Notes under the pieces: model-generated
Databases searched by the model: none
What the model saw: only the letters and a program-made list of their open reading frames with translations
Told to the model about the DNA's origin: nothing
Virus record (IMG/VR): IMGVR_UViG_3300034198_015644
Coordinates: 42,490 to 106,489 of that record
DNA length: 64,000 nt
From: a virus
Direction: 5' to 3' (one strand)
Part shown: positions 3,709 through 43,305 of the stretch, one piece after another
Layout of the letters: the number at the start of each line of letters is the position of its first letter
Position numbering within the stretch: the stretch's first letter is position 1
Translations under genes and position numbers: made by a program

Positions 3709-4068
3709 ATGGAAATACATAAACTTCGTTGGCCACTTAATGAATGTCCCATTCCCGTTAAATTTAAAACACAAAAACCTATAATTTATCCGATCATAGA
3801 AAATTTTTATGAATTACCCGATGAACAAAAAAATGTTTTATTAGAAATAAAAAAGATAATAAATTTTTATTTACCCGATGCGAAGTTATTTTTATTTGGT
3901 TCTAGAATAAAAGGTAATTGGGATGAAAATAGTGATTATGACATAATGGTTGAAACTAAAGAAAATGGCGAAAAAAATAAAATTTTAAAAAAATACGATT
4001 TTGGGGTAAAAGTAGACATTTGTTTTACCCAAAAATACGAAGCACTAAAAAAAATTGAAATTACTTAA
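3709..4068 (+). CDS. Minimal nucleotidyltransferase (MNT, Pol-beta superfamily)
   Basis: LFLFGSRIKGNWDENSDYDIMV = GS-x10-DxD signature, followed by KVDI third Asp; 119 aa. Confidence 0.85.
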   Translation: MEIHKLRWPLNECPIPVKFKTQKPIIYPIIENFYELPDEQKNVLLEIKKIINFYLPDAKLFLFGSRIKGNWDENSDYDIMVETKENGEKNKILKKYDFGVKVDICFTQKYEALKKIEIT

Positions 4069-4098: not shown

Positions 4099-4121
4099 AA
4101 AACAAAATAATTATTTTAAAA
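4099..4121 (+). promoter_or_regulatory. 23-bp element aaaacaaaataattattttaaaa (copy 1) containing palindrome aaaataattatttt
   Basis: Identical 23-mer ends 8 nt before this ATG and 7 nt before the ATG at 16578. Confidence 0.55.
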
Positions 4122-10100: not shown

Positions 10101-13100
10101 GACAACATAATTTTGGCACTATATATGAATTGGACTTAAACATAGGTGTACCTAATACTGTATTTAGTTTTGAAAATGTAACTGGTTCGGGAGATATTGG
10201 ATTTTATCCTAATGGAAAATTAACTTTAGGGTCAAACGGATTGTTATATGGACTAACAACTGGTGGAGGATTTTATGGAGTAGGGGCATTTTTTGAATTC
10301 GATCCAACTTATCTAACCTATAGGACAATACATAGTTTTAGTGGCACCCCTATTGACGGTGAGACTGCGACAGGTACTTTATTTGAAGATGAAAATGGAG
10401 TATTTTATGGGTTAACAAAAGAAGGTGGACCTATAGGTCGAGGAACAATTTTTGCTTGTGATATATATGATAATTATAAAATTTTAAAAACTTTAAATAA
10501 TTCAAACGGTAGATATCCTGAGAATACATATTTTATAAAGGCATCCGATAATAATTTATATTCTACAGTTAGTGGTGGATTACCTAATAATGGTGGTGGT
10601 ATTATAAAATTAACAATTGAAACATTAACGGGTTGTTGTTATAGTGCAACTACAAATATACCACAGTGTTTAGACGGAGTGACTATTGACACATTATGGA
10701 TAGATAATATGCCATATGTTAATGTATTAATTAATAGTCAAAATACTACACCTCCATATGAAGTTACGGTTGGGGGTATAACATATCCTTATTATGTTGG
10801 ATCATTAACCGGAAATTGTTACCCAATAATCGGATGTGATCCAGTTATTGTAAATGTTTGTGCACCTGAGATTACTTCCCAACAATTAAGTGGATTTACA
10901 GTAGAACATAAATTTAGTTTTTCAGATGCTTATGATGGTAAAAATCCATATGGTGATTTAACATTAAATTATAATGGAATATTTTATGGAATGACATCGC
11001 AGGGTGGTGTAAATGAGCCAGGATATTTCCCCACAGGATGCGGAACAATTTTTAGTTTTGATCCAATAACTAAGATTTATCAAAAAGTTTATGATTTAGA
11101 CGCTGATAATGGAGATGGATTTTTTCCAAAAGGAACATTACAATGTGACCTAAATTATAATTTATATGGGGTTAATTATTACGATGCAGTTAGTGGTTAT
11201 GGTACGTTGTTTAGTTGTACCACTTCAGGATCATACGCAGTAATACATAATTTTGACGATGTTAATGGATCAAATCCTGTTACATTACCTAGTAGAGAAC
11301 CATTAACAGGACGATTCCAAAGAGTCGGAACAACAATAAAAAGTGCAACCGGTGATGGAGTTTTATATAGTTTTGATAATGGTACACACGTGAATGATGA
11401 TTTTAGCTCAATAGGGTCTTTTGGTCGAGGCACTAATTCATATTTTAATGACCCATCTATATCTTATAATAAAGGAATAAATTCAAACGGACCCTTATTA
11501 GTTGATCAAGAGTTATCATTAATATATTTCGGATCAACTCAAGCATTTGTTTACGGCATGACAAAAGAAGGGGGAACAAACAATAATGGTGTTATTTTTG
11601 CTTATGACTTTTTTGTCTATGGTTTATACGATATTTATAATTTTACAGGCGGAGCGGACGGAGGAAAACCAACAGGAGGTTTAATTAAGTATAGTTATGG
11701 GTTATATAATAAAGTTTATGGAATGACTTCAGAAGGTGGTGCAGGTTTTGGTGTCATATTTGAGATGGATTTATCAATTTTTGGTTCACCTGTAAATACA
11801 ATTTTACATACATTTGCGGGAGGAACTTCTGATGGATCTAGACCATATGGTTCATTATACGAATTTAATGGTCGACTTTATGGTATGACATATTATGGAG
11901 GAACGAATAATGCCGGTGTAATATTCTCATTAGACCCAAGACTTCCTTATCCACACGACTATACAATCATTCATAGCTTTAATGGAAGTACGGGAGGATC
12001 AAATCCTGTAGGTTCATTGACAATGGGCCCTGATGGTAAATTATATGGTATGACATTGTATGGCGGTAATGGAGTAGGTGTAGGAGGTAAAGGTATAATA
12101 TTTAGTATTGATTTTAATTTAACTCAAAGAGCGGCATGTTGTTATCAAACAACCATAGACGTAAATGATCCTAACGATATAAATTTACCTCTTATTGAGG
12201 GAACTTGGTTTAATTCACAACCAACAATTTCTGTGAGCATTGACCCAAATAATTATTATGTCGCTCCTTATACTGTAACTATTGATGGAGTTACATATAA
12301 CTATGACACAAATAGTGCTAAAAATTATTTCCCACAATTAAGTTGTGGTACACATACAGTAGTCATTACACCAAATGCGGGAAACAATACACTTGACTTT
12401 TCGGGTTTAAAATCGTTTAGTGGACCAACAATTGATCCGGGTTCATTATTTGGTAATCCAATTGAACCAATCACCAACGAATTTTATGCCTTATCTTATG
12501 CGGGTGGAGCATTAAATTTTGGTACAATTTTTAAGATTGATTTGTTAGGTAATGTTGAGATACTTCATAATTTTTCAGGATCAACTTATGGTGATGGAAA
12601 CCACCCAATACAAGATTTAATTTTATCGTCAAATGGAAAAATGTACGGTACAACCTCGGAAGGCGGAATATATAATGCGGGTACAATATTTAGTTGTGAT
12701 ACTTTAGGTAATTATGGTATAGTTTATAATTTTTCTGGTGGCACAAATGGAGGTGGACCGATTCAAAATTTAACAGAAGTTTCTAATGGTATTTTTTATG
12801 GATTAGTGTATCAAACCGGTGCATTTGGTATGGGTATTATTTTTAGTTGTGATACAATAGGAAATTATAAATTGATTCATAGTTTTAGTGGGTCACCTTA
12901 TGATGGGATGCAACCTTTAGAAAGTTTTTATAAACATTCAAATGGTATTTTATATGGTACTACATTTAATGGGGGTACTTATAATGCGGGAACAATTTTT
13001 AGTTGTGACACTTTAGGTAATTATGGTATAATTCATAGTTTTAATAATACAGTGATTCCCAATAACGGATGCAACCCAAGATGTACGTTAATTGAGGGAG

Positions 13101-16100
13101 ATAATGGTATTTTATATGGTACTACATCAAATGGTGGAAATATAGGTTCATATGGGACAATTTTTACTTGTAGTACATCAGGAAATTATGGAGTAATACA
13201 TAAATTTACAGGTGTAGATGGTGACGGACCACAAGAAGGTCTTTTTAAAGGTCAAAGTAATATTTTTTATGGGACTACTTATGGTGGTGGGATTCATAAT
13301 TTGGGTACAATTTATAGTTGTGATACTTTAGGTAATCATGGGGTAATTTACAATTTTAATGGTTCAGGTTCAACCGGATCTTTACCGTATAATGGATTAT
13401 ATGTGGCAGAAAATGATATTTTATACGGTTTCACTCAGTACGGCGGAATTTATTCGGCGGGAAATTTTTATAGATTTAATCCATATAATTTTCTATATGG
13501 AGATTGTCCTTATTCGGGTACTGTTAACATACCATGTTTTTATTTAGATGAATTAAATGTGGAAGTTCCATGTACAACAAACGATGGTCAAATATCAGTT
13601 CAGGCATTGGGAGGTAATCCTGATTACACATATACTTTGACATATACTAGTATAACAAATGATACATACAGTATAACACAATTTGGTACCACATTTCAAC
13701 CAATAACGTTTATCAATTTAAGTGCATTAACATGGGGATTAATTGTCACAGATTCTAGTGGACAAACGTTAAGTCAAATTTATGATTTTAATCCAATCGA
13801 TAACCCATCTATCACTACAGTTAATGGTGATACTATTTGTATTAGTTTAGATCAAGTGGGATTATCATTAACAGGTATTACATTAGATGGTAATATACTA
13901 TATAGTGGGAATATAGGTCTAACTAATTTTTGTTTTACTGCAGGTTGTGGTAACCATTTGGCCCAATTTTATACTACCAATGGATGTATGTACCCCATTC
14001 CCTTTTCTTTTGATTGCCCACCAAGTAATTTAGTCTTCACAAATTTAAGTCAGATAGATCCTTTTTGTTGTAACTCTTCTGCAAAAATTAATGTGGCAGT
14101 AACAGGCGGTACATTGCCATATACGTATACTATATATAATATACCAACTACCGCGACTTATACTAATACTACGGGTAATTTTACAAACATATACCCACCT
14201 ACAGGAACTTGGCAAGTAATTGCAACGGATGCAAATGGTAGCACGATAAGTAGTAATATTTTTACATTAAATTCAATATTTTTTGCTGATATTACATTTA
14301 TTAATAATATCGCAGTTATTAATTTTAGTGGATCTACTGGAATAGATGTACTAATAAATGGAGTTTCACAAACTTTAGGTTATATTGCAACTAAAGTAAG
14401 TGGGGGAACTTTAAGTTATCCAATACCTTGTGGAACTAATATTAATGTTGAAGTTATTGGTAGAATAGTTATAAATCCTATAACTAAAACTTATGAATAT
14501 TGTCCTATAAGTGCAAGTACATTTTATCCTTGTCCTTTATTTTGTAGTAATATAATTAGTCAACCAAGATGTCCAGGACAAAACGCTAATTCTGTTACAG
14601 TCTTAGTAACAGGCGGAACACCAAACTACAATATAACATTAACTAATGGTACGTTAATTTATACTGCTAACACATCACTAAATAGTTATATTTTTAACGA
14701 TAACCCACCTTTAGTCACTTTAATACAAGATGATTGGACAATAACTGTTATAGATTCTGATGGTACAGTTTGTATACAAGATATAACTATACAATCTAGT
14801 TTTGATGCAACAATAACAGGTACGTCAACGGGGGCATGTTTTACGGTAGTTGGGGGAAATCCACCATATACACTTTATATTGATGGCGTGATTTATACAC
14901 CATTAATAAATCAAATAAGTAATGATATTGTTTATTGCGTACCACTAAATTGCGGTAATCATCAATTAGAAATAAGAGAAACAGGAGTACCACCAGCGGC
15001 ATGTTCAATAGTTTTAGATTACTTTAGTTCCTGTCAATTGACTTGTAGTACAATAACTACAGATCCCGGTTGTAATGATAATTGTAGTGGATCAGTTACG
15101 ATAAGTGTAACTGGTGGAACACCACCATACAACTATAGTTTAATTAGAACCTCACCATCGTTTTATCAAACGACATATACGGGTCCACAAACTACTTGGA
15201 CTTTCTATGATCTATGCGAAGGGACTTATGATATTACAGTATCGGCGTTAACTAATGGTGCGTTTTGTACATCTAATTTGAATCTAGCATCAATATATGA
15301 TGTAGTAGTTAGTGGATATGCAGTTTCAACTAACTGTCTATATGGTGTAATGTGTATTGACATTACGGGAGGAACACCACCTTATGATGTATATATTGAT
15401 GGAATACTAAGAGCAACTGCAATTACTCAAACACATAGTTGTTATAGTGCAACTTGTGGTGTAAATCATACTTATCAGGTAATTGATTCTGCACCTCCTT
15501 GTAATATACCATTAAATCAGGCATTACTTAAAAATACAAGTTTTACAGGGACTAGTGATTGGATATTGACTAATGATTATACTGGTAGTACTATAATATC
15601 GGGAGGTAGTGCAATAGTATCTTCTACGACATATAATACTTTACAAGTATTTAGATTTTTACAAGATTATATTTTCCCGTTCCAAAAACCAATATCAATA
15701 AAATATAATGTCAGTGTTAGTACAGGGACAATTCAAAATTACAATTATTTACCACAATTTAGGATACAAAGTCCTTTTGGTAGTACTAATATGGGTGGAA
15801 TTGCACCTAATTCGACATATTCTACAACAAAACAGATAGTAAGTACGGTAGAACCTGTAATTTTCTCAGGTTTTGGTATTAATTTTTATCAATCGTTCCT
15901 ACCTAATAATAAAACTGAGGTAAAAGACATGCAATTGACATTATTGTCTTATACTGTAGATTGTAGATGTTCGGCTAGCGGAACTACATATGTACCTTGC
16001 AACCCACCATTAACATTAAATGTTGTTTCTTATACAGAACCAAATTGTTTCAGTGCTTGTAATGGAACTATCATCGTTTCTGCAACCGGAGGAGTACTCC

Positions 16101-16435
16101 CATATAGTTACTCAGCAACTAATGGAACGTCAATTTACATAAGCCCTAACGGGGTATTTAACGATCTTTGTGAAGATACTTGGGACTTGTCGGTTAGTGA
16201 TAGTTGTAATACAGTTGTTACAAACGCAGGATTCTTCTTACCAAACTCATTCCATGTAACAGTGGATACGTATCCTACAGAGTTTTGTGTGGGAATAACA
16301 GGAGGAACACCACCTTACCATGTTTTCATAGATAATGTAGAAATTGATACCATTAGTCAAAGTCCGGTTAATATTTGTTATAGCGCAAGTTGTGGGGTAA
16401 CCACAATTATACGTGTGGTGGATAGCTCTACTTAA
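4130..16435 (+). CDS. Giant (4101 aa) Cys-rich adhesin/fibre-like protein: N-terminal GH-like domain, SprB-like repeats, four TIGR03803/GloVer-type beta-propellers
   Basis: Recurrent P(S/T)C...dGsI...GG..PY.Y (SprB-like) units and LYG.T..GG....G.IF blades at about 8220-9240, 9490-10620, 10880-12120 and 12390-13490; no signal peptide or T9SS CTD evident. Confidence 0.75.
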   Translation: MAFPILRDPEVIHLFVDKFPTLLSGPSSAITEFYSFCVKNGVNELSLYDTLSVLPSSTNSVSNFIYSAKTFNYVCEVGGTVNPYDPATLGLKYLNLITTYNNGQPNLSRKYDRITIENEFWNLETSINPLKNTAGFTISTIAGNTVASIAGGIPSSIFVVGNMVKVFGEYRQVLAIGATTITVDRGFTNTVTNQTFEIRDNKVSGAETYAIDFETYLLRLKNIRNVAVANNLKIDAYLSRRVTQVQFLKLIPFIDRILIEADYDQNNYLLYNDPTQLNKIRDVLIRCSQNRTGTVNINVGNNNMQGIGTDFTNELGVGTKIYVSGQVFTIQSIVSSTQATLLETNNSSTINNATFKTYTEFAPIFYINKTLRKTWLTTPVSTKSYADVFKMFTLSGYTVGGSVQSGSNPICYNLEDNPSITGATNLIGISIFDRTEAQSIDIKVAQSSSPRSSCTNPLARSIGANNTYAITFQGNDCTCDNATNGSVTANFSTIQPTPYNYTFTNGGRVIEITNLTTPPPYTFSGLGLGTWNISVRDGNNSVSTGSVTINESFQPTITGNYISAGQGGITVFYTGGYNNYYISRIDNPTNINNQWGPFISYHNAGSDPFFDSNITVNNTTKSYNSSSTPAYNFVPNQSYSFVIGDTDACIKIFTVTIPQASTGPSVNITQTTNPSCDAASNGSITMVAAGTGPYVFHVTYPNGNTSNINSVSTTQVLNNLSAGNYSVTVTDANNVTSTPAVTTTLTNTYNSNINATSTSPNQVCFQLVAGSTYTITSGGGTFQSFNQTVSGPNFTPCFNNLPGGQYNFNVLSSNGCSETIYLTVNSATLTLSLNQYENPSCTQVNDGIINVFATSNGNGQFSYSASNGSVIYSNNSGNFTNLSAGTWTLSVSQNGILGNNIVVQLNNSFYVNVTSTGETVCVSASGGSLGIYTVDINGTLHTYNTASTINCYTGLCSGNVVRVVDGDIINTSISGCVYTTTTPKDCAFNFNVTANTITCGDYGSIIARADGGVTPYIYTATGNGTYTNTTGNFNVLPSGIWTITVEDNIGNSGTTTVNLDSKLKFSADSSALSATCVTIIDGLAPYYILINQILYTASTQGTYCFDLECGYNGIDVYDSCTGTTCANYLFTAPGGIQSFFQNIFWTNCSGMTQSGILNSISPIIGNTFSTCAIFGTPVTTNSKIEISLIGFCPPGTNQDCVVDNSVIVYYDCPGPLSLEQTQDSVNPSCTDSSDGEIYFSGFGGDYPYVSYSAINGNTIYVNGTGTFSNLSAGTWTIYVEDSSNTITSTTVTLVSDFIVDFTITSFTENSVTICANIPIQYQTLEYELTFENQTAILNASNSFCNTFTGITGCSVVNVNLCSLRNYRRLTNIGGGGRSVIKGSDGLFYGVTQIGGLYNYGTIYRYNETTKVYTTLHSFNGTTDGNTPQDIIEVSNGKLYGICLVGGNSGYGTLFSCTTSGSYAVIHNFDGTNGGNPVSNLTLASNGVMYGMTQYDSTYGYGTIFSCSTIGNFGVVYSFQYVFSIPFDGYNPTGKLIEASNGLLYGVTPLGGSSDQGILFNYDYINNQYNNLFSFDYGSVAYPNEIVEGLDNNLYVIGDTFSNKSIYKLDLSGTPKGNVHNFSLSDGSNANKLIKGLNGNLWGSTLYGGLYNFGTIFSCDTLGNFEVLYNFKNSLPNDNFLLNTNSTIFYGTRQSNILYKINVSLPESCCFDTTTNLNDLLKPNIISLYGDYVNGVPSICTTIDISSSVNVWYTVTVNGEENIYDRSLEPNCFSALTEGLTDVSICEYVDSFNYLAIHYFDSTNNTFGTTPNGGLIEASDGNFYGMTFNGGSNDFGVIYSCDTIGNYGIIYNFGSVLFDGKYPLGSLIQGSNGTLYGMTSSDNILNLCGVIFSCTTTGNYGIIHRFDNTVTNGVTKGRTPEGSLCEVSDGFLYGVTRYGGFNNGGVIFKINPTTGQYFSIYEFGQAPNDPLEPIEGVIEVNNKLYGMSYFGGQHNFGTIYELDLNIGVPNTVFSFENVTGSGDIGFYPNGKLTLGSNGLLYGLTTGGGFYGVGAFFEFDPTYLTYRTIHSFSGTPIDGETATGTLFEDENGVFYGLTKEGGPIGRGTIFACDIYDNYKILKTLNNSNGRYPENTYFIKASDNNLYSTVSGGLPNNGGGIIKLTIETLTGCCYSATTNIPQCLDGVTIDTLWIDNMPYVNVLINSQNTTPPYEVTVGGITYPYYVGSLTGNCYPIIGCDPVIVNVCAPEITSQQLSGFTVEHKFSFSDAYDGKNPYGDLTLNYNGIFYGMTSQGGVNEPGYFPTGCGTIFSFDPITKIYQKVYDLDADNGDGFFPKGTLQCDLNYNLYGVNYYDAVSGYGTLFSCTTSGSYAVIHNFDDVNGSNPVTLPSREPLTGRFQRVGTTIKSATGDGVLYSFDNGTHVNDDFSSIGSFGRGTNSYFNDPSISYNKGINSNGPLLVDQELSLIYFGSTQAFVYGMTKEGGTNNNGVIFAYDFFVYGLYDIYNFTGGADGGKPTGGLIKYSYGLYNKVYGMTSEGGAGFGVIFEMDLSIFGSPVNTILHTFAGGTSDGSRPYGSLYEFNGRLYGMTYYGGTNNAGVIFSLDPRLPYPHDYTIIHSFNGSTGGSNPVGSLTMGPDGKLYGMTLYGGNGVGVGGKGIIFSIDFNLTQRAACCYQTTIDVNDPNDINLPLIEGTWFNSQPTISVSIDPNNYYVAPYTVTIDGVTYNYDTNSAKNYFPQLSCGTHTVVITPNAGNNTLDFSGLKSFSGPTIDPGSLFGNPIEPITNEFYALSYAGGALNFGTIFKIDLLGNVEILHNFSGSTYGDGNHPIQDLILSSNGKMYGTTSEGGIYNAGTIFSCDTLGNYGIVYNFSGGTNGGGPIQNLTEVSNGIFYGLVYQTGAFGMGIIFSCDTIGNYKLIHSFSGSPYDGMQPLESFYKHSNGILYGTTFNGGTYNAGTIFSCDTLGNYGIIHSFNNTVIPNNGCNPRCTLIEGDNGILYGTTSNGGNIGSYGTIFTCSTSGNYGVIHKFTGVDGDGPQEGLFKGQSNIFYGTTYGGGIHNLGTIYSCDTLGNHGVIYNFNGSGSTGSLPYNGLYVAENDILYGFTQYGGIYSAGNFYRFNPYNFLYGDCPYSGTVNIPCFYLDELNVEVPCTTNDGQISVQALGGNPDYTYTLTYTSITNDTYSITQFGTTFQPITFINLSALTWGLIVTDSSGQTLSQIYDFNPIDNPSITTVNGDTICISLDQVGLSLTGITLDGNILYSGNIGLTNFCFTAGCGNHLAQFYTTNGCMYPIPFSFDCPPSNLVFTNLSQIDPFCCNSSAKINVAVTGGTLPYTYTIYNIPTTATYTNTTGNFTNIYPPTGTWQVIATDANGSTISSNIFTLNSIFFADITFINNIAVINFSGSTGIDVLINGVSQTLGYIATKVSGGTLSYPIPCGTNINVEVIGRIVINPITKTYEYCPISASTFYPCPLFCSNIISQPRCPGQNANSVTVLVTGGTPNYNITLTNGTLIYTANTSLNSYIFNDNPPLVTLIQDDWTITVIDSDGTVCIQDITIQSSFDATITGTSTGACFTVVGGNPPYTLYIDGVIYTPLINQISNDIVYCVPLNCGNHQLEIRETGVPPAACSIVLDYFSSCQLTCSTITTDPGCNDNCSGSVTISVTGGTPPYNYSLIRTSPSFYQTTYTGPQTTWTFYDLCEGTYDITVSALTNGAFCTSNLNLASIYDVVVSGYAVSTNCLYGVMCIDITGGTPPYDVYIDGILRATAITQTHSCYSATCGVNHTYQVIDSAPPCNIPLNQALLKNTSFTGTSDWILTNDYTGSTIISGGSAIVSSTTYNTLQVFRFLQDYIFPFQKPISIKYNVSVSTGTIQNYNYLPQFRIQSPFGSTNMGGIAPNSTYSTTKQIVSTVEPVIFSGFGINFYQSFLPNNKTEVKDMQLTLLSYTVDCRCSASGTTYVPCNPPLTLNVVSYTEPNCFSACNGTIIVSATGGVLPYSYSATNGTSIYISPNGVFNDLCEDTWDLSVSDSCNTVVTNAGFFLPNSFHVTVDTYPTEFCVGITGGTPPYHVFIDNVEIDTISQSPVNICYSASCGVTTIIRVVDSST
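8470..8535 (+). repeat. 66-bp exact direct repeat, copy 1 (copy 2 at 11191-11256)
   Basis: tagtggttatggtacgttgtttagttgtaccacttcaggatcatacgcagtaatacataattttga is identical at both sites. Confidence 0.9.
11191..11256 (+). repeat. 66-bp exact direct repeat, copy 2
   Basis: Identical to 8470-8535. Confidence 0.9.
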
Positions 16436-16475
16436 AAAAGTAAAATATAAAAGATTAAAACTATGTACGTTTTTT

Positions 16476-16525
16476 ATAAAATCCTTAATTTTAAATAATT
16501 AAGGATTTTATCCTTTTATTTTTAT
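16476..16525 (+). terminator. Probable intrinsic terminator after the 4101-aa gene
   Basis: Perfect 15-bp inverted repeat ataaaatccttaatt/aattaaggattttat (16476-16511) followed by a T-rich tract. Confidence 0.65.
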
Positions 16526-16547
16526 TAAAAAACTTATAAAAAATCAG

Positions 16548-16570
16548 AAAACAAAATAATTATTTTAAAA
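16548..16570 (+). promoter_or_regulatory. 23-bp element, copy 2
   Basis: Identical to 4099-4121, at nearly the same distance from the start codon. Confidence 0.55.
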
Positions 16571-16577
16571 ACAAAAG

Positions 16578-18458
16578 ATGCCTATTCCAGCACCATATAA
16601 TCCTAAAAATTTACATTTATGGGTTGATAATGTTACTAGTTTGTTAACTAACAGTACCAATTTTTTCCAATTAATTGATAATAACTGTATTAACACATTC
16701 ACTATGTATCAAATACCTACGATAACTTCGCAGGTACAATCTTTGGGAAATTTTATATGTGAGGCAAAAACAAATCATGGAGTCTGTAGTGTGGCAGGAA
16801 TTATAAACCCATACGATTGGACTCCTCCTCCGGCCGGTACAAGAAACGTTCAATCTATTGTCAATTACAATAATAACCCAATTACACAGGCAAATTCATG
16901 TCGTAGAATTGATTATCTCACAATTGAGAGTGAGTTTTGGAATATAGACGATCCCGCAATAAATCCTGTAGTTTCTAATGGTTGTACCATAAATATAGCT
17001 GCTAACTCATCAACAGGTACAGTTTCAGGTTGTTTAGGAGGAGTAACCGCAGGTATGATAATAAAAGTTTCTGTTGGGGCGACTTTTGTTTATAGACAAA
17101 TAATTGGTATTAGTGGTAATATTGTAACATTTGATAGAGTTTTTGATCCAATTAACGCGTACTTAGCTGCACCATTTACAGTAATTAACAACCAAACCTT
17201 CTATGGAATTGATTTTGAAACACTATTATATAGGATAAAATATAATATACGACCTATGGCAATTGCAAATAACTTATTGCCATTAGAAATATATGTTTCA
17301 AGAGCTTTAACCAGCGATCAATTTGAAAGACTAATACCACACGTTGATAGATTATTAATTGAGGTAGATTATAATCAATTAAGTTATCCTAGATACAACG
17401 ATAACGATGTAACTAATCCCTCATGGTCAACTAACACTATTAAAAACGCTCTAAGTCTTTGTAGCGTCATTAGAACGGGTACAATTTCAATTGCACAAAA
17501 TAGTAATATTGTAACAGGTAGTGGAACTTTATTTACAAGAGATTTGGGTGAACAATCACAAATAATTGTAAATGGAAACCAAATTTATACAATTGCCACA
17601 ATAATTTCAGATACTCAGGCAACAATTGTTGGTACTTCCCCAATCAATATAACTGCAGGTAGCACATACGCATCTTATTTTGATTACATGCCAATTTTTT
17701 ATACATTACCAGCTGGGGCATTTGGTACTCCTCTTAGGAGACAATGGATGTTAAACCCTTCACCAAAAAGTTATGCGGATGTATATAGATTCCATTCTCA
17801 AAACGCCTATACTGCAGGTGGATCAATACAGGTAGGAAATACCCCTATTGCATTTAACAACGAAACAGATCCATATATTGTTGATTCAGTTTCATTAGTT
17901 GGTTTATCGTTATTTGTTTGGTCTTCTGTTAGTAATTTATCTCCTGTTGCACCACCAGATTATCCTTGTCCACCTTGTAGTGGAGAAACCATAATAGGGT
18001 GCGAGGTTACCGCAATCACAACCTCAAATTGTTTAATCGCAACATATACTAATCCAGCTTGTGATGGTGTTTGTGATGGCACTATAAGTGCGTCTACAAC
18101 ATATGGAATTGCGCCATTTACTTATTATATAACAGGAATAACTAATTCAATAACTTATGTAAGTAGTACAGGTTTTTTCAGCGGATTATGTGAAGACACT
18201 TATATTTTATGTGTTACAGATTCTGCATCAAATACCGAATGTTATTATCAAAATATAGAATTAGTAAATACATTTTATGCATCTATAAATTCATTTTTAA
18301 ATGGTTTTTGTGTTACAATAAGTGGAGGTACAGGAATTTATTATGTATACAAGGATAATCAAGTTTTGCCTTGGGATTATAATAATACTACAAATTGTTA
18401 TAGTGCGGATTGTTCCACACTTTCAGTAATAACAGTAAGAGATACTAGCACATTATAA
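16578..18458 (+). CDS. 626-aa miniature paralogue of the 4101-aa protein (GH-like domain plus one SprB-like pair)
   Basis: Shared motifs: HL(F/W)VD, TIE(N/S)EFWN, IDFET.L.R, LIP..DR.LIE.DY.Q, KSYADV; the C-terminus matches the last ~140 aa of the 4101-aa ORF. Confidence 0.8.
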   Translation: MPIPAPYNPKNLHLWVDNVTSLLTNSTNFFQLIDNNCINTFTMYQIPTITSQVQSLGNFICEAKTNHGVCSVAGIINPYDWTPPPAGTRNVQSIVNYNNNPITQANSCRRIDYLTIESEFWNIDDPAINPVVSNGCTINIAANSSTGTVSGCLGGVTAGMIIKVSVGATFVYRQIIGISGNIVTFDRVFDPINAYLAAPFTVINNQTFYGIDFETLLYRIKYNIRPMAIANNLLPLEIYVSRALTSDQFERLIPHVDRLLIEVDYNQLSYPRYNDNDVTNPSWSTNTIKNALSLCSVIRTGTISIAQNSNIVTGSGTLFTRDLGEQSQIIVNGNQIYTIATIISDTQATIVGTSPINITAGSTYASYFDYMPIFYTLPAGAFGTPLRRQWMLNPSPKSYADVYRFHSQNAYTAGGSIQVGNTPIAFNNETDPYIVDSVSLVGLSLFVWSSVSNLSPVAPPDYPCPPCSGETIIGCEVTAITTSNCLIATYTNPACDGVCDGTISASTTYGIAPFTYYITGITNSITYVSSTGFFSGLCEDTYILCVTDSASNTECYYQNIELVNTFYASINSFLNGFCVTISGGTGIYYVYKDNQVLPWDYNNTTNCYSADCSTLSVITVRDTSTL

Positions 18459-18459
18459 A

Positions 18460-21400
18460 ATGCCATATATTTTTAACGACAAATATTATAAAATAATACA
18501 TAAAATAGGACTTAATAATCTTAGTCAACAATCAAATAGTTCATTAATTATACCTAACTCCTTTCTAAATAATTTATTTTATGCAACAACGGAGGAAACG
18601 AGCTTAGTAGGTTCCAATTTTCGAGGTACTATATATAGAGCTGATGCGGATGGTAACGTTTTTGATGTTTTGTATCTTTTTTCGGGATTAACTCAACCAC
18701 TCACACTATTTAAAGACGGTGATGGAGATCGACCAATCGGATCATTAATCGAAGCACCAAATGGGTTGTTGTATGGAACAACTGATGGTGGCGGGGTTTG
18801 GACTAATAGTAGTCAAACTCCTATTTATGGAAATGGTATATTATTTAGCTATGACCCTTTGGGTAATACATACAATATTTTATATAGATTTTCGGGTATA
18901 ACAAATTTTGATCCGATACCTTCTTTAACGGATGGTGGTAGGCCACAAGCAAATTTAAAAGTAATTTCAGGTACAACAATATTTGGTACAACTTGTGCCG
19001 GAGGTTATAACCCTATAGGTGGGGGAACTGAATTAGGGTCTATTTGGAAATTTGATACGTCAACTAATACATATTCAATTTTACACCATATTACTGCATC
19101 TACGGAAGGAAGAAAAGTAACTGAACTTATTTTGGCTAATGATGATAATTTATATTTTACAACCAAATTTGATGGTGCGGGTTTTCCATGGCCTGCTGGA
19201 GGATCATTAGTTAAATTAGATCTAAATGGGAATAGTACAGTAATACATCAGTTTACCAATACTCCTGATGGGGCAGATCCTTCCGCATCATTATTACAGG
19301 CATCAAATAATTTAATTTATGGTACAACTACTCAAGGAGGAACAGGAGGATATGGGACAATATATACGTGTGATACTTCAGGTAATTACGGAATCATATA
19401 TAATTTTTTAGGTGGAATTAATGGACAAAATCCATCAGGATCTTTATATGAATATAGCCCTGGATTATTTTATGGTATGGCATATGGTGGGGGTAATTTT
19501 AATTTAGGTGTTATTTATAGTTCAGATACTTTTGGAAATGTAGGAGTAATTCACCATTTTGGATCTTTTTATCTAGATGGAGAATCTAATTATCGACAAA
19601 TTACTAATCTTAGTACAGGAGTTAATGGATCTCTTTTTGGTGTTACAAACGGTGGAGGAATAGGAAGCGGGACAATTTATACTTGGATTGATACTTGTAG
19701 TTTTATTTATTCCAGAAGCGGAACAACATTAAATTATTTCGATCCAAATCATATTGAATATTCGTATTATTTTGAAACTATAAGTCCATCAAATATAAGA
19801 GTAGCATTTGCATGTAGAAATAATAATCTTTTTTGGAGAAAAATTACCACATCATTTAATGTTATAGATGAATTTACGTTAGGAAATTTTTTAGACGAAG
19901 CGCCCGTCATAAATAGAAATATATTTTTACCTCCAGCAGCATTTAAAGGAATGGCATATGCCGGACCAAATCAACTCTTTGTAAACAATAGAACTTCACA
20001 AAGAGTTGAATTATATGATATAACAAATACAAGTGCAACATTAATAACTCCAGTATTTTCACTACCTATAACACATCAGTTTAGTATAGGAAATTATACA
20101 GATTCTTTGTATGTAAATAACACTCAAACAGTATTTTATATTAATTTTAATAATACATTTACATCGTTTGATTCTAGTGGACAAATTTTAAATGACGGGG
20201 CACCACCTTTAGGTAATGTAGTTAGTATGTATGTACATAATGGTGATATATACACTACTACTGACAATAATTTAATTTATCTTACCGAACCTTCCGCACC
20301 AAGTGGATGGACTTTTACCTTGATAGGTAATACACCATATAACGAACCAATGTATGCAATCGCACAAGATAATATTTCTGAATGTCTATTATCAATCCCA
20401 ACGGTAGATTATTCTTGTGTAACTTTATTTGTACGTTATGCGGATGATTTTTATATTTATGAACTTGACCCCAATAATCCCGATATTTTAAATTATAGAT
20501 TTAAGCCTTTTTATGCGACAACTCAATTAGCGACAAACGGAATTTATCTTTGGGCACATAGAAGTACAGTTCCTTCATCATTTATTGATGTGTATGATTT
20601 GGCCGCATCGTATGCTACTCTTAATGGGGTATTAGTACCAAGTATGCAAATTACTGTTCCAATTAACACTAGACTTGGTGGAATTTTTTATATATCACCT
20701 AACCAATTATATGTAGTTAATGAAACTTTAAATACGGTAGAATTGTGGGACATATCAACACCACCTACACCTATAATAACAACAGTATTTAATATACCCG
20801 CACCATATTCGCCAGTAATACTTAACTCTTCCTATAATTCTTTATATGTTGATTTAAATAATAATATATTTTATTTGACAACTTTTACTGATTTTGTTTC
20901 ATTTAGTGTAACACCTGGCAACCCTAATCCAACTGTTTTAAATACCTCATCAAGTACAATTCTCCCAAATGGGCATCAAATAATTAACATGTATTTGGAT
21001 AATGGACAAATATATGTTACAACTCAACAAGGGTATATATATTTGGCACAACCGGCGGTGGGAGGAGGATGGACTTTTATACAACAAACATTTATACCTA
21101 GACCAACAAGATTTGGTGTGACACAAACTTATGCAGAAGATTGTGTAGGTACTGTTCCACCCACACCTTTAACAGGTTGTGTTATCACAGGATTAACAGT
21201 AACAGGTTGTTCTGATTTTGTTATAGTAAGTGGGGATAGTCAAGACATAACATGTTTACATGATGGTAGTGTATCAATTCAAATATCAGGAGGATGCCCA
21301 AATTATACATATACATTATACCACCCAAATATAAGTACACAAGTAAATCAAGTAGTAACACCTAACAAAAATTGGACTTTTACAGGATTAACTGATCCGG

Positions 21401-24400
21401 GAAATTACTATGTATCTATAAGTGGATGTAGTGGGGCGACGTTAGTGACATTAAGTCCATTTACAATTTTAGATAACAATACTTTTTATAATAACATCTT
21501 CCAATTAAACAATGAAGAGTTTTGTGTTACTGTAAGTGGTGGTACATTACCTTATATAATTACAATTGATGGAGTTTCTCAAACGTATCAAAGTGCAGAC
21601 ACATATTGTTTTAGTGCAAGTTGTTTAACACCACCATCACCATCACTAATTAGATGTAGATTAAGTAATAATAATGGAAGAATAAATAGAGCTTGGGATG
21701 GAACACCTTTAAGTCCATGTCAACATACTTTTACAATTTTAGATTTAACCGTAAATGGAGTCCAATATGGACCCGGTACACCACTAACAGTTACCGCACC
21801 TTCAGGATTGATGGCGGGAATAGGTACTGATGGTAATAGTTACGTCACCAATATTACTGATTGGATAAATAGTTATGTGCCAGCAGGATTTACATTTTGG
21901 GATGACATGAAAGTTGTCGATAGACCTGTAGGATCAACATTTAACTTAACCATAAGTTACTTCAACGCATGTGCAGGAACAACTCAACAATATACATATA
22001 ACGACTCTACGGGTTGGACAATACCGGGACCTCAAACATATTCTACATATGATTGTGTACCTTTAACAATTGGAGGTGGATCACAAACAGGAAGAACAGT
22101 TACTATTAGTGATGCGGAAGGATGTAGCGCAAGCACTGTTATAAATTATACTTGTGAAACGCCAACAATTAGTATAAGTGGCACAAATCTTTGTTGTAAT
22201 AATGACGGAAGTGTAAGTATAACAGTCAATAATGGAGTACCTGCTTTTAGTGTTACCGGCACTAATGCGACTACGGGTGAAGAAATAATTGTAACTTCAC
22301 CCACAACTCCAATAAACATAGATCATTTAACTCCGGGTAATTGGACGTTTGTTGTACAAGATTCTTACGGTAATTTAATAACCACCAATAATACAATTAA
22401 TTTAATAAGATCTTATAATGTTGATTTTTTCAGTGCAAGCACTTCCCCAACAGGGACTACATTTTGTTTTAGTGGAGAATCTTGTTTAGATTATTTGAAT
22501 GTAATTATTGAAGCTACCGGTCAAATAACCTCGATCAATCTAAACCCGACACCGGATGCTTGGTTTGGTACTGATGGAATTATTGATACAAATACTTTAT
22601 ATTGCTTTGACATACCAATAGAGTATTGTGGAAACGATGTAATAAATATATTATTTTTTAATGGACTAAATACTAACATAAATGTTCTATCAGGATCATT
22701 TACTAACCCAACCTGTCAGGCGCTATTTGGATATGTAGGGGCACAAGAAGGTACTTGGGTTAATGGGTATCCTGCTTATTGGTTTACTCTTAATAATGGA
22801 ATTGATGTTGTAGTTTATTTTGATTTAACATTAAATCTTTGGGTTTGGAAAAATAGAAATAGTGGTACTATTTGTTCATCTTCACCTGATTTAATAAACT
22901 GGACATCAATAAATACTAGTCCAAATTGTCAGTGTGTTGATAGTTTTACTAGTTCTATAGTTATTGCTGTCGATTCTTGTGGTTACATATACGAATCTAT
23001 AAGTTTACCATGTCCGACACTTACATTAAGTGGAACATCAGTAAATCCTACATGTATTCAAAATTGTAGCGGAACAATAACATTGACATCATCAGGAGGT
23101 CAATCACCATTTACTTTTCAATTAACAGACTCCAATGGAAATACATTATTAAATTCCATTGGACAACCAACAATTGCAACAAATATAACTACTAATAGTT
23201 ATACATTTACTAATCTTTGTTCGGGTACTTATTATACATTAATTACTGATAGCGCTTTCCCAATTCCAGCTACGGCAAATACAACACCAATAGTTTTAAT
23301 AAATACATTTATCGCTAGTGCAAATGTTTTACCTATAACAATAAATGGCACTGGAGGTACAATTTGTTTTACGGTTACAGGAGGTAGTGGAAATTATAAT
23401 ATTGACATACAAGATACCAATTATACTTATCCGCCAGTAAATGATACTATAGTGGACGGTGAAACTTGTTTTGATTTGCCATTTGGGTGTTATGATTGGT
23501 CAATTATAGATCCTTCCACATTATGTCAATACACAGGAAATACGTGTATACCTGAGACACCATTTGGTTGCGGAGATTATACATATACTGACCCAACCTG
23601 CACCAATGACGGCACATTAACAATCAATGTTAGTGGAGGAACGGGTCCATATCAATTTGATTTATACCTTAATGGAATTTTCAATCAAACAGGTACTAAT
23701 TCTGTTGAAACATTTACATTTCAAAATTTAGTTGCGGGAACTTATAACGTTTTAGTTACAGATTTAGGTAGTGGGACAGTTTTAGATTGTGTTACAGTAA
23801 CATTAGTAAATACGTTTAGTGTTCAATTTATAAGTGGAAGTACTTGTGAAAATCCAGGATATTATTGTGTCTCATTTTCAGGAGGAAATCCACCATATAT
23901 TATAGAGTTTGATCAGACTATACAATATGTTGAATATATTGCAGGTACATACTGTTACCAAGCACCTTGTGGAACTTATGAATTAACGGTAAGTGATAGT
24001 GCAATTATTGGAAATTGTTATCAAGTCCAAGTGTACACTAAAGGATTGGGTGGATTTATTATAACCACAGATATAAATGGAAATGAAATTGCAAATACTG
24101 TACCAATTTCATTAAGTCCACAAACATTTTATTTTTGTTCTTTTAGTGCGCCTTATTATTCGGTATCAGGACCACCTTATAGTCCATATGTACCTCCATC
24201 ACCATATTATCTTAATATTTCTACATCAGGAGATTGTTCTAGTACGAATTGTGGCGGATCAACAATAGGTGGATGTAGTGATTCACAAACAATCACAATA
24301 TCTTGTGGAGTTGATTTAAGTGCAACTACCGTTGGTAACCCTTGTGGTCAAAATGGTCAAGGATCTATAACTATATTTAATATTGGTGGATCACCTAATT

Positions 24401-27400
24401 TCCAATATTCAATAAACGGAGGTTTAACCTATCAATCGTCTAATTATTTTACTGGACTAAATAGTGGTACATACGATATTACAATATTAGATGCAAGTGG
24501 TTGTACGGCATCAACTCAGGCGGTAATAGGGTATCAAACAAATTTAAGTGTAAGTGCGAGTACAACACCTGAAAATTGTGACTATAGTAGTGGGGGAACT
24601 ATTACGATTAATATAGTTGGAGGTACACCTACATATTCAATATCACTTAATGGAGGATTACCAACTACGCAAACATATTACACAGGATTAACAGTAGGAA
24701 CTTACACATTTAATATTACAGATTCAGAAGGTTGTACTGCGACAATTGATGTTACAATTGAACCACCAATAAGTCTTAGCGGTACAATAACTACGTCAGA
24801 AAGTTGTAGTTATTCACCATCATTAAATCAATATTTGGCACTTAAAGTCGAGTCGCTAATTAACTATTTAGGTAATGATGTATTAGAAAATGAACACATA
24901 AATTATGCGGTTTGTCAAGGATATACAATTTTCCAATCCTATGGGGTGGCTAAAATATGGAGGACATTATCCCCAACTGTAACTAATCCACAAGGATTAA
25001 ATAGAGCGCAGGCAGAGGCAAGACTTAGTGTATTTTTAGGTAAAATATATTCGGCAGGTTTATTACCAGTGGCACTTTTAGGTGACACTGCAGACATGGA
25101 TTGGTTGGCAAGTGTGGATGCGGTAAATGCAAATAAATTTTGGGGAATTGGTTTAGAAAATGAATTTTGGAATGGTGCAGTATCTTTTGCGAATTGGGTT
25201 AGTTATTTAAATTATTTAAAAGTTACATATCCACAATATTTTAGGATGGCATATTTGGCCAATCCGGCAGGAACTTGGGGGGCAACTGAAGCATTACAAA
25301 TTATAGATGCGCAAATAGATGTAATAGAAATTACAAATTATAATTCAGGTAAACCTAATCCAAATTGGGGATCTTTTGTTAACCAATTAAATCTTTTAAG
25401 TACTGCGGCAAATATTAGAGGAGTTAATCAAAAATTTATACCATTATGGAGTGCGGAATATAATGGTAACTCAGGTAATAATTTTTCGGGACAATATTTT
25501 GGCGTTACTACAAATTATACAAAAATAAATCCATCTGCAGTACTTACGCAATATGATATAGATTTTGCTGCAGTAACATATGCATACCCTCCGAATTTGA
25601 CAAAGGTAGGATTTAGTATGTATGAATACATTTACGCAATTGATGCGGGTGTATTACCTCAATGTACGAATTTATCGGGTTCAATAACTGCTTCTACTAT
25701 AACTTCTGGTGGTACAGGAGTTTATAGTACCTCAGGAACTTTAACAATAAATGCTAATGGTGGATATGCCCCATATCAATACTCAGTAGATGGTGGGGCG
25801 TTTGGAACATCTAATTATTTTACAGGATTAAATGGTGGAATACATAATTTTGTGGTAATAGACGCGAGCGGTTGTACTGTCAGCGGTACGACCACAATCG
25901 GAGGGGCATTTGAGTTTGAAACATCAGTGACATCGTTAGATTGTTTAACAACTAGCAGTGCAACCATATGTGTTACAAGTATATCAGGAGGATACCCACC
26001 ATACACCTATTCAATTAACGGAGGATCTTTTAGTAGTTCAAATTGTTTTAGTGGATTATCTTCAGGTTCATATACAATTGCAGCTCAAGATTTATCGGGT
26101 TGTAGTGCAACAACAGTAGTATTTATTTCTGCACCATCACCAATTATAGTAAATGCAAATGTAATAGATTCAATTAGTTGTTTAGATGGGTCAAGCGCTA
26201 GTGGAGGTACTATAACAATTACTGCGACCAATGGTACTTCACCATATTATTATAGTATTGATAGCGGGTTAAATTATCAAACATTAAATACTTTTATAAA
26301 TGTACCTGTAGGTACATATACCATAGTAGTTAAAGATTCCTTAAATTGTACAGGTACTACTACAGTAAATGTTGGAACAAGACCTTCGTTCTCAATAAGT
26401 GCCTCATCTACGCCTGATAATTGTAGTTTAACAGGGTTAGGTAGTTTAACTATAAACGTTATCGGAGGATATTCACCATATTACTATTCAATTGACGGAG
26501 GTTTATTCTTTAATGGACCAATAAATTCAAATTCTTATTATCAAGGAGGATTAAATCCGGGTGTTTACGACATAGTAGTTGAAGATAGTAGCGGTTGTAC
26601 TGCGACCACACAAGTAACTATTATCACTAGTGAAGATTTAACTATAGGCGTTGTAACAACACCTGAAACTTGCAATTACAATAGTGGGGGTACGGCAACT
26701 ATTAGTGTGACAGGAGGGACTCCAACATTTACATATTCATTAAATGGATCTTCTCCAGTTTCTTCTAATTATTTTACAGGTTTAACTGTTGGTACATACA
26801 CAGTAACAGTTACTGATAGTTTAGGATGTAATGATACAATAACATTTACTATTGATCCACCAATAAACATAAGTGGTAATACAACTCCTCAACCATGTAA
26901 TGGTATTAGTGGTGGTACGTTAACAATAAATGCATCTTCAGGTAATCCACCATATACATATTCTGTCGATGGTGGATCATTTACCAACAATAATTATTTT
27001 ACAGGATTAACAACAGGTAGTCATACCATTATTGTTAAAGACGCAAGCGGATGTACCGCGTCTACAATAACACAAGTAAATCCACCAATTATTGTAAGTG
27101 CCGTAACTACACCAGAAAATTGTTTATATACAAGTGCGGGTACAATAACAATTGTCAGTACTATTGGAGGTACTTCACCTTATACTTATTCAGTTAATGG
27201 TGGATCATTCACAAATTTAACATATTATACAGGATTAACTTTTGGTAGTTATAATATTATCGTAAAAGATATTTCAGGTTGTAGTGCAACTACGCAGGTG
27301 ACAATTAATCCACCTATACCTGTTAGTGGTACAGTAGTTACTACAAATTTAGATTGTAATAATACTAACATAGGTACATTATTGATAACTGCCTATGGAG

Positions 27401-38061: not shown

Positions 38062-38697
38062 ATGAGCGAAGAAAAAGAGTTATTTTTAGGATTAGACGTA
38101 TCAACTAAAACAATTGGGATTTCTTTATTTGAAAGTACGGGTAAATTAATTTTATTAACCCATGTAACCCCCAAGATTAAGCTGGAAGATTTATCGTCTA
38201 TGGAAATTTTAATCAAAAAAGTTGAAGTTTTTGAAACAGAGTTTCTTGAAAAGTATGCGGATAGTAATATAACAAAGGTTGTTATAGAAGAACCATTATT
38301 ACAATCTAATAACGTTAATACGGTTGCTACGTTGCTTCGTTTTAATGGAATGATATGTAGGAGTGTTTACGAAACATTGAATGTTGTACCCGACTTTATA
38401 TCGTCTTATGACGCAAGAAAATATGCATTTCCTGAATTAATGCAAATTAGAACTACAGATAAAGAAGGTAAAATTTTAAGTGAAAAAGAACTTAAAAAGA
38501 AAACGCCGGTATTATTTGGCGGACATCCAAAAAATGTAGATAAGAAATTAATTATTTGGGAAAAAGTTGCTGATCGTGAACCACACATTGTTTGGTTATA
38601 TGATAAACACCAAAATCTTAAAAAAGAAAATTTTGATATGACAGATAGTTATGCTGCGACTTTAGGTTATATGAGAAAGAATGGTATTTGGAATTAA
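38062..38697 (+). CDS. RuvC-like Holliday junction resolvase
   Basis: LGLDVSTKTIG, VVIEEP and D-x-x-D (FDMTDSY) RNase H-fold catalytic motifs. Confidence 0.8.
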   Translation: MSEEKELFLGLDVSTKTIGISLFESTGKLILLTHVTPKIKLEDLSSMEILIKKVEVFETEFLEKYADSNITKVVIEEPLLQSNNVNTVATLLRFNGMICRSVYETLNVVPDFISSYDARKYAFPELMQIRTTDKEGKILSEKELKKKTPVLFGGHPKNVDKKLIIWEKVADREPHIVWLYDKHQNLKKENFDMTDSYAATLGYMRKNGIWN

Positions 38698-38704
38698 TTA
38701 TTTT

Positions 38705-40123: not shown

Positions 40124-40134
40124 AATCATAAATA

Positions 40135-40166
40135 TTTGGTTTTTTAATATAATTTACATATATTTG
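40135..40166 (+). promoter_or_regulatory. Bacteroidota sigma-A type promoter
   Basis: TTTG (40135-38), 20-nt spacer, TATATTTG (40159-66); ATG follows 4 nt later. Confidence 0.75.
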
Positions 40167-40170
40167 TCCC

Positions 40171-41525: not shown

Positions 41526-41565
41526 AGTAATAAGTATAATACCTTAAATATAAATATAACGTAAC

Positions 41566-43288: not shown

Positions 43289-43305
43289 ACTAATAAATAT
43301 AGAAA

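What the first reader, a model, noticed from the sequence alone, without database searches (positions are those of the whole stretch)
16240..21260. ORF junctions fall at the domain-insertion loop: possible donor-strand complementation chaining the three proteins
Seen: the intact repeat reads F....CV..SGG...Y.V.I.G...CY...C...VRVVD-loop-GC(V/x)....C (for example at 6850-7090). Both the 4101-aa ORF (IRVVDSST*) and the 626-aa ORF (ITVRDTSTL*) stop right after the V(V/R)D strand and lack the final GC strand. Each following ORF begins with an unrelated cargo domain and then shows an orphan GC strand: IGCEVTAITTSNC near 17997 and TGCVITGLTVTGC near 21175. Inference: the missing strand (and possibly a disulfide Cys) is supplied in trans by the next protein, polymerising the three into one fibre. 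Alternatively, an ancestral ~9.5-kaa gene split twice at the same loop.
Basis: inference. Interest (0 to 1): 0.72.

Follow-up and report, generated by a model that had tools for sequence, protein, structure and literature searches.

The report
Split domain may chain phage fibres
Two giant fibre genes of a freshwater jumbo phage stop one beta-strand short of a complete domain and the next genes carry exactly that spare strand, a pattern kept in related phages that suggests the proteins click together end to end, although binding itself could not be tested here.

Summary
The window is part of a 106-kb viral contig, about one third of a jumbo phage. ORF1 (4101 aa) and ORF2 (626 aa) both end directly after the penultimate strand (V.D-S-S) of an SprB-like beta-sandwich module, called B here. 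ORF2 and ORF3 each carry an orphan C-x9-C strand with no B core before it.

In 84 non-identical B copies from 132 fetched proteins:
- 19 are C-terminal, and all stop at this same turn.
- Every internal copy continues into the closing strand, after a short turn (3 residues is the commonest length) or after an inserted domain.

Six ORF2 orthologues, the ORF3 orthologues and the ORF1-like proteins keep the same ends. Two relatives begin with the strand at residues 2-14. ORF1-like paralogues lack it, so the following domain does not need it. Cysteine covariation implies that the B core is disulfide-linked to the closing strand. This leaves one unpaired cysteine on each truncated end.

One correction: ORF2's "cargo" is a paralogue of ORF1's own N-terminal domain.

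Trans strand completion, with a probable inter-chain disulfide, is the best reading at about 0.5.

The parts
4130..16435 (+). ORF1, a 4101-aa fibre protein. It has an N-terminal ~460-aa domain, then SprB-like A/B modules with four GloVer propellers and a CBM-like insert, and it ends in a truncated B module.
6854..7087 (+). Intact reference B module with its closing C-x9-C strand (ORF1 aa 909-986).
   Evidence: AF2 of aa 905-990 gave pLDDT 79 and pTM 0.70. The segment after the loop forms strands E69-75 and E78-83.
15962..16000 (+). Closing strand in cis (ORF1 aa 3945-3957). It follows the CBM-like insert and closes the penultimate B.
   Evidence: It has the same motif class as the orphan strands.
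16250..16432 (+). Acceptor 1: the C-terminal truncated B module of ORF1 (aa 4041-4101). It ends at V-V-D-S-S-T.
   Evidence: B-profile E 5e-25; C-terminal
16476..16511 (+). A 15-bp hairpin followed by a T-rich run, in the ORF1-ORF2 spacer. It is a probable terminator.
   Evidence: dG -14.6 kcal/mol, z -4.2
16548..16570 (+). A 23-nt element identical to 4099-4121. In both places it lies 7-8 nt before the ATG.
   Evidence: Only two matches in the window; 0.04 expected by chance.
16578..18458 (+). ORF2, 626 aa. It consists of an N-domain (a paralogue of ORF1's), a CxxC motif, the orphan strand, module A and a truncated B.
17967..17978 (+). Invariant CxxC motif just before the orphan strand.
   Evidence: C464 and C467 are invariant in 7 orthologues.
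17994..18032 (+). Donor 1: the orphan closing strand of ORF2 (aa 473-485).
   Evidence: Column conservation is 0.78, the same as the folded modules; the linker before it is 0.57. The strand is absent from ORF1-like paralogues.
18273..18455 (+). Acceptor 2: the C-terminal truncated B module of ORF2 (aa 566-626).
   Evidence: B-profile E 5e-30. All 7 orthologues end here.
18456..18462 (+). TAAAATG stop-start junction. ORF3 is in the +1 frame, which is open for only 7 codons upstream.
18460..32949 (+). ORF3, 4829 aa. It has an N-terminal GloVer propeller plus an unassigned beta-rich region, then the orphan strand, A/B and SprB arrays, and a conserved C-terminal domain.
21172..21210 (+). Donor 2: the orphan closing strand of ORF3 (aa 905-917).
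   Evidence: C907, V908, I909, T913-C917 are invariant in the orthologues P0012 and P0013. P0131 has the strand directly after its propeller.

Best explanation
ORF1, ORF2 and ORF3 are fibre proteins of a freshwater jumbo phage. Their stalks are strings of SprB-like beta-sandwich modules.

In module B the last two strands form a hairpin, and large cargo domains are inserted into its turn. At two places the polypeptide is broken in that turn:
- the upstream protein ends after the penultimate strand (the acceptor);
- the downstream protein begins with a cargo domain and then supplies the last strand (the donor).

The donor strand is proposed to insert beside the acceptor's edge strand and complete the sandwich in trans. 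A disulfide between the B core's third cysteine and a donor cysteine probably locks it. ORF1, ORF2 and ORF3 would then form one continuous fibre of about 9,500 residues with cargo at the joints.

What is shown: the anatomy, its conservation, the hairpin geometry and the cysteine covariation. What is inferred: the association itself, the disulfide and the order of the chain.
For: 1. **The strand belongs to B.** Where there is no insert, the turn between V.D and the C-x9-11-C strand is 1-10 residues, with 3 as the commonest length (8 of 22 copies). A turn that short forces a hairpin. AF2 of an isolated B plus strand folds the strand into the sandwich, with pLDDT 79.
2. **The break is always at the same turn.** All 19 non-identical C-terminal B copies stop there. 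They come from ORF1-like and ORF2-like proteins and from at least five other architectures.
3. **The termini are conserved.** Seven ORF2 orthologues of 621-636 aa (48-66% identity) end ...V.DSSx. ORF3 orthologues start at the same MP.F... and keep the strand.
4. **The donor is an add-on.** ORF1-like paralogues go from the N-domain into module A through a 6-14-residue linker with no C-x9-C strand. So module A does not need the strand.
5. **Some relatives start with the donor.** P0055 and P0077 begin with it at residues 2-14. P0055 shares ORF3's C-terminal domain.
6. **Acceptors and donors appear to co-occur.** Acceptor-ended and donor-bearing proteins come from contigs of identical length: 60485, 93095, 36893 and 25476 bp.
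7. **Cysteine covariation.** Among 84 copies the three core Cys columns read CCC in 67 and --C in 13. The first two Cys therefore pair with each other, and the third pairs outside the core. Truncated ends keep all three.
8. **The strand is constrained.** The ORF2 orphan strand is as conserved as the folded modules.
9. **Co-production.** ORF2 and ORF3 meet in a TAAAATG stop-start junction of the kind that gives translational coupling.
10. **Precedent.** Missing strands are supplied by a second protein in the split nozzle of phage A1002 (PMC13730344).
Against: - No test of binding was possible.
- The whole-ORF2 AF2 model is poor (mean pLDDT 56, and below 30 over aa 371-500). It neither packs nor frees the strand.
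- The disulfide partners are inferred from parity and covariation, not from coordinates.
- Whole-protein cysteine parity does not fit a simple one-free-Cys rule.
- Adjacency in relatives rests on equal contig lengths only.
- ORF1 and ORF2 have homologous N-domains containing a tail-fibre-type stretch (phrog_1980). Both could therefore be separately anchored fibres.
- ORF1 and ORF2 are separate transcription units.
- P0017 shows that a terminal B can also be closed in cis.
Confidence: 0.5

Rival explanations
1. There is no trans completion. The six-stranded B module is a self-sufficient natural cap at the C-terminus of several fibre proteins. The so-called orphan strand is only a linker or an N-terminal extension that packs on its own chain, against the cargo or the following A module. 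The three proteins would then be independent fibres or decorations.
For: - Proteins commonly end and begin near module limits.
- ORF1 and ORF2 have the same N-domain with a tail-fibre-like stretch, which suggests parallel anchoring.
- AF2 still draws six strands for the truncated B of ORF2, at pLDDT about 50-77.
- Whole-protein Cys parity is not consistent with one free Cys per end.
Against: - The break lies inside a hairpin, not at the module limit.
- No fetched protein ends just after a direct closing strand, whereas 19 end just before one.
- ORF1-like paralogues show that module A folds without the strand, yet the strand is near-invariant where it is present.
- The third core Cys is kept in all truncated ends, although its usual partner is missing.
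Confidence: 0.27
2. The acceptor and donor ends are real interaction modules, but the partners are not the gene-order neighbours. Either donor may fit either acceptor. ORF2, which has both, may join to itself. Or the acceptor may be filled by another virion protein.
For: - The acceptor sequences of ORF1-like and ORF2-like proteins are almost the same (S-[VI]-I-T-V-x-D-S-S), while the donors differ.
- Relatives appear to have two-protein versions, for example P0014 with P0055, judged by equal contig length.
Against: - Nothing here measures specificity.
- In this genome only ORF1-3 carry B modules.
- The TAAAATG junction of ORF2 and ORF3 favours the neighbour as partner.
Confidence: 0.15
3. The breaks are artefacts, or they are bypassed. 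ORF2 and ORF3 (or ORF1 and ORF2) would be made as one chain through an assembly error, a frameshift, read-through or a reassigned stop codon.
For: - ORF2 and ORF3 are one base apart, and ORF3's frame is open for 7 codons upstream.
- The junction looks like an internal B-propeller junction.
Against: - Both stops are TAA.
- The ORF1-ORF2 spacer has stops in all frames.
- No slippery site is evident.
- An independent run reproduces the ORF1 end.
- Orthologues from other samples have the same separate ends and starts.
- No fused form appeared among the matches in 1.8 billion representative proteins.
Confidence: 0.03

Closest known systems
Donor-strand complementation and exchange in chaperone-usher pili (Fim, Pap, CupE; own knowledge and PMC10104325, which was listed but not read)
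   Same: A beta-sandwich subunit lacks its last strand. The next subunit supplies it from a segment near its N-terminus. The result is a head-to-tail fibre.
   Different: - Here the incomplete module is the last of dozens in multi-thousand-residue phage proteins.
- The donor would restore the native hairpin, as in a split protein.
- The donor usually sits after a large cargo domain.
- A disulfide lock is predicted.
- No PapD-like chaperone or usher is encoded in the 106-kb record.
- There is no sequence relation to pilins.
Split nozzle of Pseudomonas podophage A1002 (PMC13730344)
   Same: A phage tail domain is divided between two gene products. One product fills in the beta-strands missing from the other. 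In that phage the fibre dimers also dock by beta-sheet augmentation.
   Different: It involves a different fold (propeller and platform), a different virion part and a different phage group. It was solved by cryo-EM, whereas the present case is only inferred.
Multi-protein long tail fibre of phage T4, gp34-gp35-gp36-gp37 (own knowledge)
   Same: The products of consecutive genes join end to end into one long fibre.
   Different: The T4 joints are between trimeric segments and need chaperones. No split domain or strand donation is known there. T4-like features were not tested here.
SpyTag/SpyCatcher, the engineered split CnaB2 domain (own knowledge)
   Same: An Ig-like domain lacks its last strand and is completed by a short peptide. 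The complex is then locked covalently.
   Different: It is man-made, and the lock is an isopeptide bond rather than a disulfide. The present case would be a natural equivalent.
SprB-repeat adhesins and GloVer-repeat proteins of Bacteroidota and other bacteria (PF13573, TIGR03803)
   Same: The same repeat families build the stalk and the cargo.
   Different: The cellular proteins are single secreted chains. The B variant, with three core cysteines and nested inserts, and the broken hairpin were seen here only in this phage-associated group.

Membership tests
SprB repeat (PF13573) / BiPBP_C-like beta-sandwich | A match to the profile above the gathering score. | tested here: met
   ORF1 scored 72.7 bits and ORF3 173.2 bits, against a cut-off of 28. 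BiPBP_C scored 43.7 bits in ORF3. ORF2 alone gave no Pfam hit, but its aa 467-625 are 40% identical to the ORF1 C-terminus.
GloVer repeat proteins (TIGR03803) | Tandem ~50-aa GloVer repeats above the cut-off. | tested here: met
   ORF1 scored 691.7 bits with 22 stretches. ORF3 scored 166.4 bits with 8 stretches. The cut-off is 44.
Chaperone-usher type donor-strand complementation | A subunit fold that lacks its C-terminal strand. | tested here: met
   This rests on homology and hairpin geometry. Terminal B copies stop before the strand that all internal copies have. AF2 of an intact copy places that strand in the sandwich. There is no experimental structure.
Chaperone-usher type donor-strand complementation | A donor strand on the next subunit, near its N-terminus. 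| tested here: met
   Orphan strands occur in ORF2, ORF3 and P0128 after a cargo domain. In P0055 and P0077 they occupy residues 2-14.
Chaperone-usher type donor-strand complementation | A dedicated PapD-like chaperone and an usher. | tested here: not met
   PF00345 and PF00577 gave no match in the 106-kb record. The record is only about 32% of the genome. This is therefore not a member of that system and is at most an analogue.
Chaperone-usher type donor-strand complementation | Physical completion of one subunit by the strand of another. | not testable with these tools
Phage tail fibre proteins | Similarity to known tail-fibre families, within a virion-gene context. | tested here: inconclusive
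   ORF2 aa 299-351 match the N-terminal part of phrog_1980 'tail fiber protein' (E 1.8e-7). The upstream 853-aa ORF matches collagen-like tail-fibre phrogs. Foldseek gives weak hits to tailspike N-terminal parts. No virion data exist.

The most novel reading that the evidence does not exclude
The acceptor and donor ends form a general snap-together system for giant phage fibres. Under this reading ORF1 (acceptor only) starts a chain and ORF3 (donor only) ends it. ORF2, which has both ends, can add to itself. The fibre would then be a pilus-like, disulfide-locked polymer ORF1-(ORF2)n-ORF3 of variable length, with an enzyme-like domain at every joint. Modules could also be swapped between phages at the same socket.
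Probability: 0.12. Interest if true: 0.88.

Novelty: new variant of a known kind. Interest (0 to 1): 0.68.

Why it matters
If the strand donation is real, it would be, as far as three full-text searches and my own knowledge show, the first natural case of pilus-style strand complementation in a virus fibre. It would also be a natural counterpart of split-domain protein ligation tools.

It would explain how phages can build fibres of nearly 10,000 residues from separately encoded pieces. It would explain why gene fission in these fibres is tolerated only inside one hairpin. It would also show how cargo domains such as propellers, carbohydrate-binding modules and enzyme-like barrels can be exchanged as cassettes.

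The predicted short donor peptide and small acceptor module, with a disulfide lock, are directly testable. They could become a new pair of protein-coupling parts.

Tried and rejected

**DNA context of relatives**
- blastn and tblastn against the phage records found nothing.
- Three scans of viral contigs and two of metagenome contigs found nothing.
- The scan's own index of look-alike stretches in other genomes also held nothing.

**Structure**
- AF2 of whole ORF2 was too poor to place the strand.
- Foldseek and VIA-align of the B-plus-strand model gave only generic beta-sandwich or jelly-roll matches (best E 0.014; Z at most 7.2). They do not name a family.
- Foldseek of the ORF2 model gave low TM scores.
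- No solved structure matched SprB modules by sequence.

**Other tests**
- Whole-protein cysteine parity was noisy and was dropped.
- I considered the reading that the orphan strand is the first strand of the following module, which would make every terminus an ordinary domain limit. I rejected it because of the 3-residue hairpin turns and because ORF1-like first A modules lack the strand.
- Stop-codon reassignment was rejected. Both stops are TAA, the frames differ, and the spacer is closed in all frames.
- No RNA holder was listed among the sequencing runs.
- No run other than the probable source covered the ORF2-ORF3 junction.
- Three literature searches for donor-strand or strand complementation in phage fibres found no such report.
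Full report
**Context.** The window is bases 42490-106489 of a 106,489-bp IMG/VR virus record that CheckV rates 32% complete, so it comes from a jumbo phage. G+C content is about 30%. Downstream genes match phage primase, a RuvC-like resolvase and an SbcC-like nuclease, and the upstream 853-aa ORF matches collagen-like tail-fibre families. Near-identical DNA occurs in freshwater metagenomes. Three consecutive plus-strand ORFs fill 4130-32949: ORF1 (4101 aa), ORF2 (626 aa) and ORF3 (4829 aa). Pfam finds SprB repeats, and NCBIfam finds GloVer propeller repeats, with 22 stretches in ORF1 and 8 in ORF3.

**Checking the observation.**
- ORF1 and ORF2 are separated by 142 nt. The spacer holds a 15-bp hairpin (dG -14.6, z -4.2).
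- A 23-nt element lies 7-8 nt before the ORF2 start and is identical to one before the ORF1 start. These are the only two copies in the window.
- ORF2 and ORF3 meet as TAAAATG, with ORF3 in the +1 frame.
- A 52-kb contig spans both junctions, and an independent freshwater run reproduces the ORF1 stop and the spacer exactly.
- One part of the description is wrong. ORF2's leading domain is a paralogue of ORF1's own N-terminal ~460 residues (36-37% identity). ORF2's last 160 residues are 40% identical to ORF1's last 153. ORF2 is therefore a miniature ORF1.

**Does the strand belong to module B?** This is the crux. If the C-x9-11-C strand were the first strand of the next module, every terminus would be an ordinary domain limit. 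Three results argue against that.
- Where no domain is inserted, the connection from the V.D strand to the strand is 1-10 residues, most often 3. That only allows a beta-hairpin.
- AF2 of an isolated B plus strand (ORF1 aa 905-990) gives pLDDT 79 and pTM 0.70, with the segment folded as strands.
- ORF1-like paralogues (P0014, P0015, P0017, P0019) pass from the N-domain into the first A module through short linkers without such a strand. So module A does not need it.

The cargo domains (propellers, a CBM-like domain) therefore sit inside the last hairpin of B. This agrees with other first-stage notes on this genome.

**How general is the pattern?**
- ORF2 has six orthologues of 621-636 aa at 48-66% identity. 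All end ...V.DSSx, and all keep the orphan strand almost unchanged. Its conservation (0.78) equals that of the folded modules.
- ORF3 orthologues (P0012, P0013, P0131) start with a GloVer propeller and keep the strand.
- A phmmer scan of 1.8 billion representative proteins found many further proteins of 181-3328 aa that end at the same D-S-S turn. It found two (P0055, P0077) that begin with the strand at residues 2-14, and no fused ORF2-ORF3.
- P0055 shares ORF3's C-terminal domain.
- P0128 has a propeller, then a donor strand, and ends in an acceptor.
- With a profile of module B, 84 non-identical copies were found. Of these, 19 are C-terminal, and all are cut at the same turn. All internal copies continue into the strand or into an insert.
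- P0017, an ORF1-like protein, instead closes its last B in cis after a 260-aa Cys-rich insert.
- Acceptor-ended and donor-bearing proteins share exact contig lengths four times: 60485, 93095, 36893 and 25476 bp. This suggests co-location, but the DNA could not be fetched.

**Cysteines.** The three core Cys columns of B read CCC in 67 copies and --C in 13, with four other patterns. The first two Cys are therefore lost together and pair with each other. The third is nearly always kept, so it must pair outside the core. The closing strand always offers two Cys. Truncated ends keep all three core Cys, which leaves one without a cis partner. In relatives where module A has a single Cys, the donor plus A also has an odd count. 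This predicts an inter-chain disulfide. Whole-protein parity is too noisy to confirm it.

**Interpretation.** A fibre that is split at a true domain boundary would fall apart. A split inside a hairpin can be held together by strand completion. The exclusive use of this one turn for termini, together with conservation of both halves, is best explained by trans completion, which may have arisen by old gene fissions. In this phage only ORF1-3 carry B modules, giving two acceptors (ORF1, ORF2) and two donors (ORF2, ORF3). I give this reading about 0.5.

**Rival readings.**
- A self-sufficient six-stranded cap with an inert linker: 0.27.
- Real sockets with other or promiscuous partners, including ORF2 self-addition: 0.15.
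- Artefact or recoding: 0.03.

**Limits.** The whole-ORF2 model was poor, and the fold searches were generic.

**Comparison with known systems.** The arrangement works like pilus donor-strand complementation, but it is not a member of that system. No chaperone or usher is present, there is no sequence relation to pilins, and the strand would restore a native hairpin. The nearest viral precedent is the split nozzle of phage A1002, where one protein supplies strands missing from another (PMC13730344). Three literature searches found no report of strand complementation between phage fibre proteins.

Noticed in passing
window 4099-4121 and 16548-16570: An identical 23-nt A/T-rich element with an internal palindrome lies 7-8 nt before the start codons of ORF1 and ORF2 and nowhere else in the window. 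It is probably a shared promoter, operator or leader of the two paralogues.
   Followed up: partly
window 3709-4068 (+): A 119-aa ORF between the collagen-like fibre gene and ORF1 matches the minimal nucleotidyltransferase domain (PF01909, E 3.8e-10). This is an odd neighbour for fibre genes.
   Followed up: partly
window 17967-17978: An invariant CxxC motif lies 5-8 residues before the ORF2 donor strand. It is also present in some ORF1-like proteins. It might serve disulfide exchange during joining.
   Followed up: no
window 21484-22125 (ORF3 aa 1009-1222): The first B module of ORF3 carries a ~150-aa insert in a different loop, between the C..C pair and the V.D strand. The insert is conserved in P0012 and P0013.
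   Followed up: no
window 24787-25719 (ORF3 aa ~2110-2420): A non-repeat domain with an E-N-E-F-W motif, like the one in the ORF1 and ORF2 N-domains, sits between SprB modules. It has no Pfam match, and BLAST finds no link to the N-domain.
   Followed up: partly
P0055 and P0077 (relatives), aa ~150-200: Their first B module carries an insert with a phosphoesterase-like V-V-V-x-F-E-N-H-S-Y motif. This is another cargo type in this fibre family.
   Followed up: no
P0017 (relative), aa 3807-4153: This ORF1-like protein continues from its last B module into a 260-aa Cys-rich domain and then a closing-type strand near the C-terminus. It is a version closed in cis.
   Followed up: partly
genome G000:C1:34085-38722, upstream of the window: A 1545-aa ORF shows one SprB-like anchor motif but no B module. 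It may be a further fibre component.
   Followed up: no
window 38062-47105: A replication and recombination block follows the fibre genes. It includes a RuvC-like resolvase, a DnaG-type primase and an SbcC-like nuclease.
   Followed up: no
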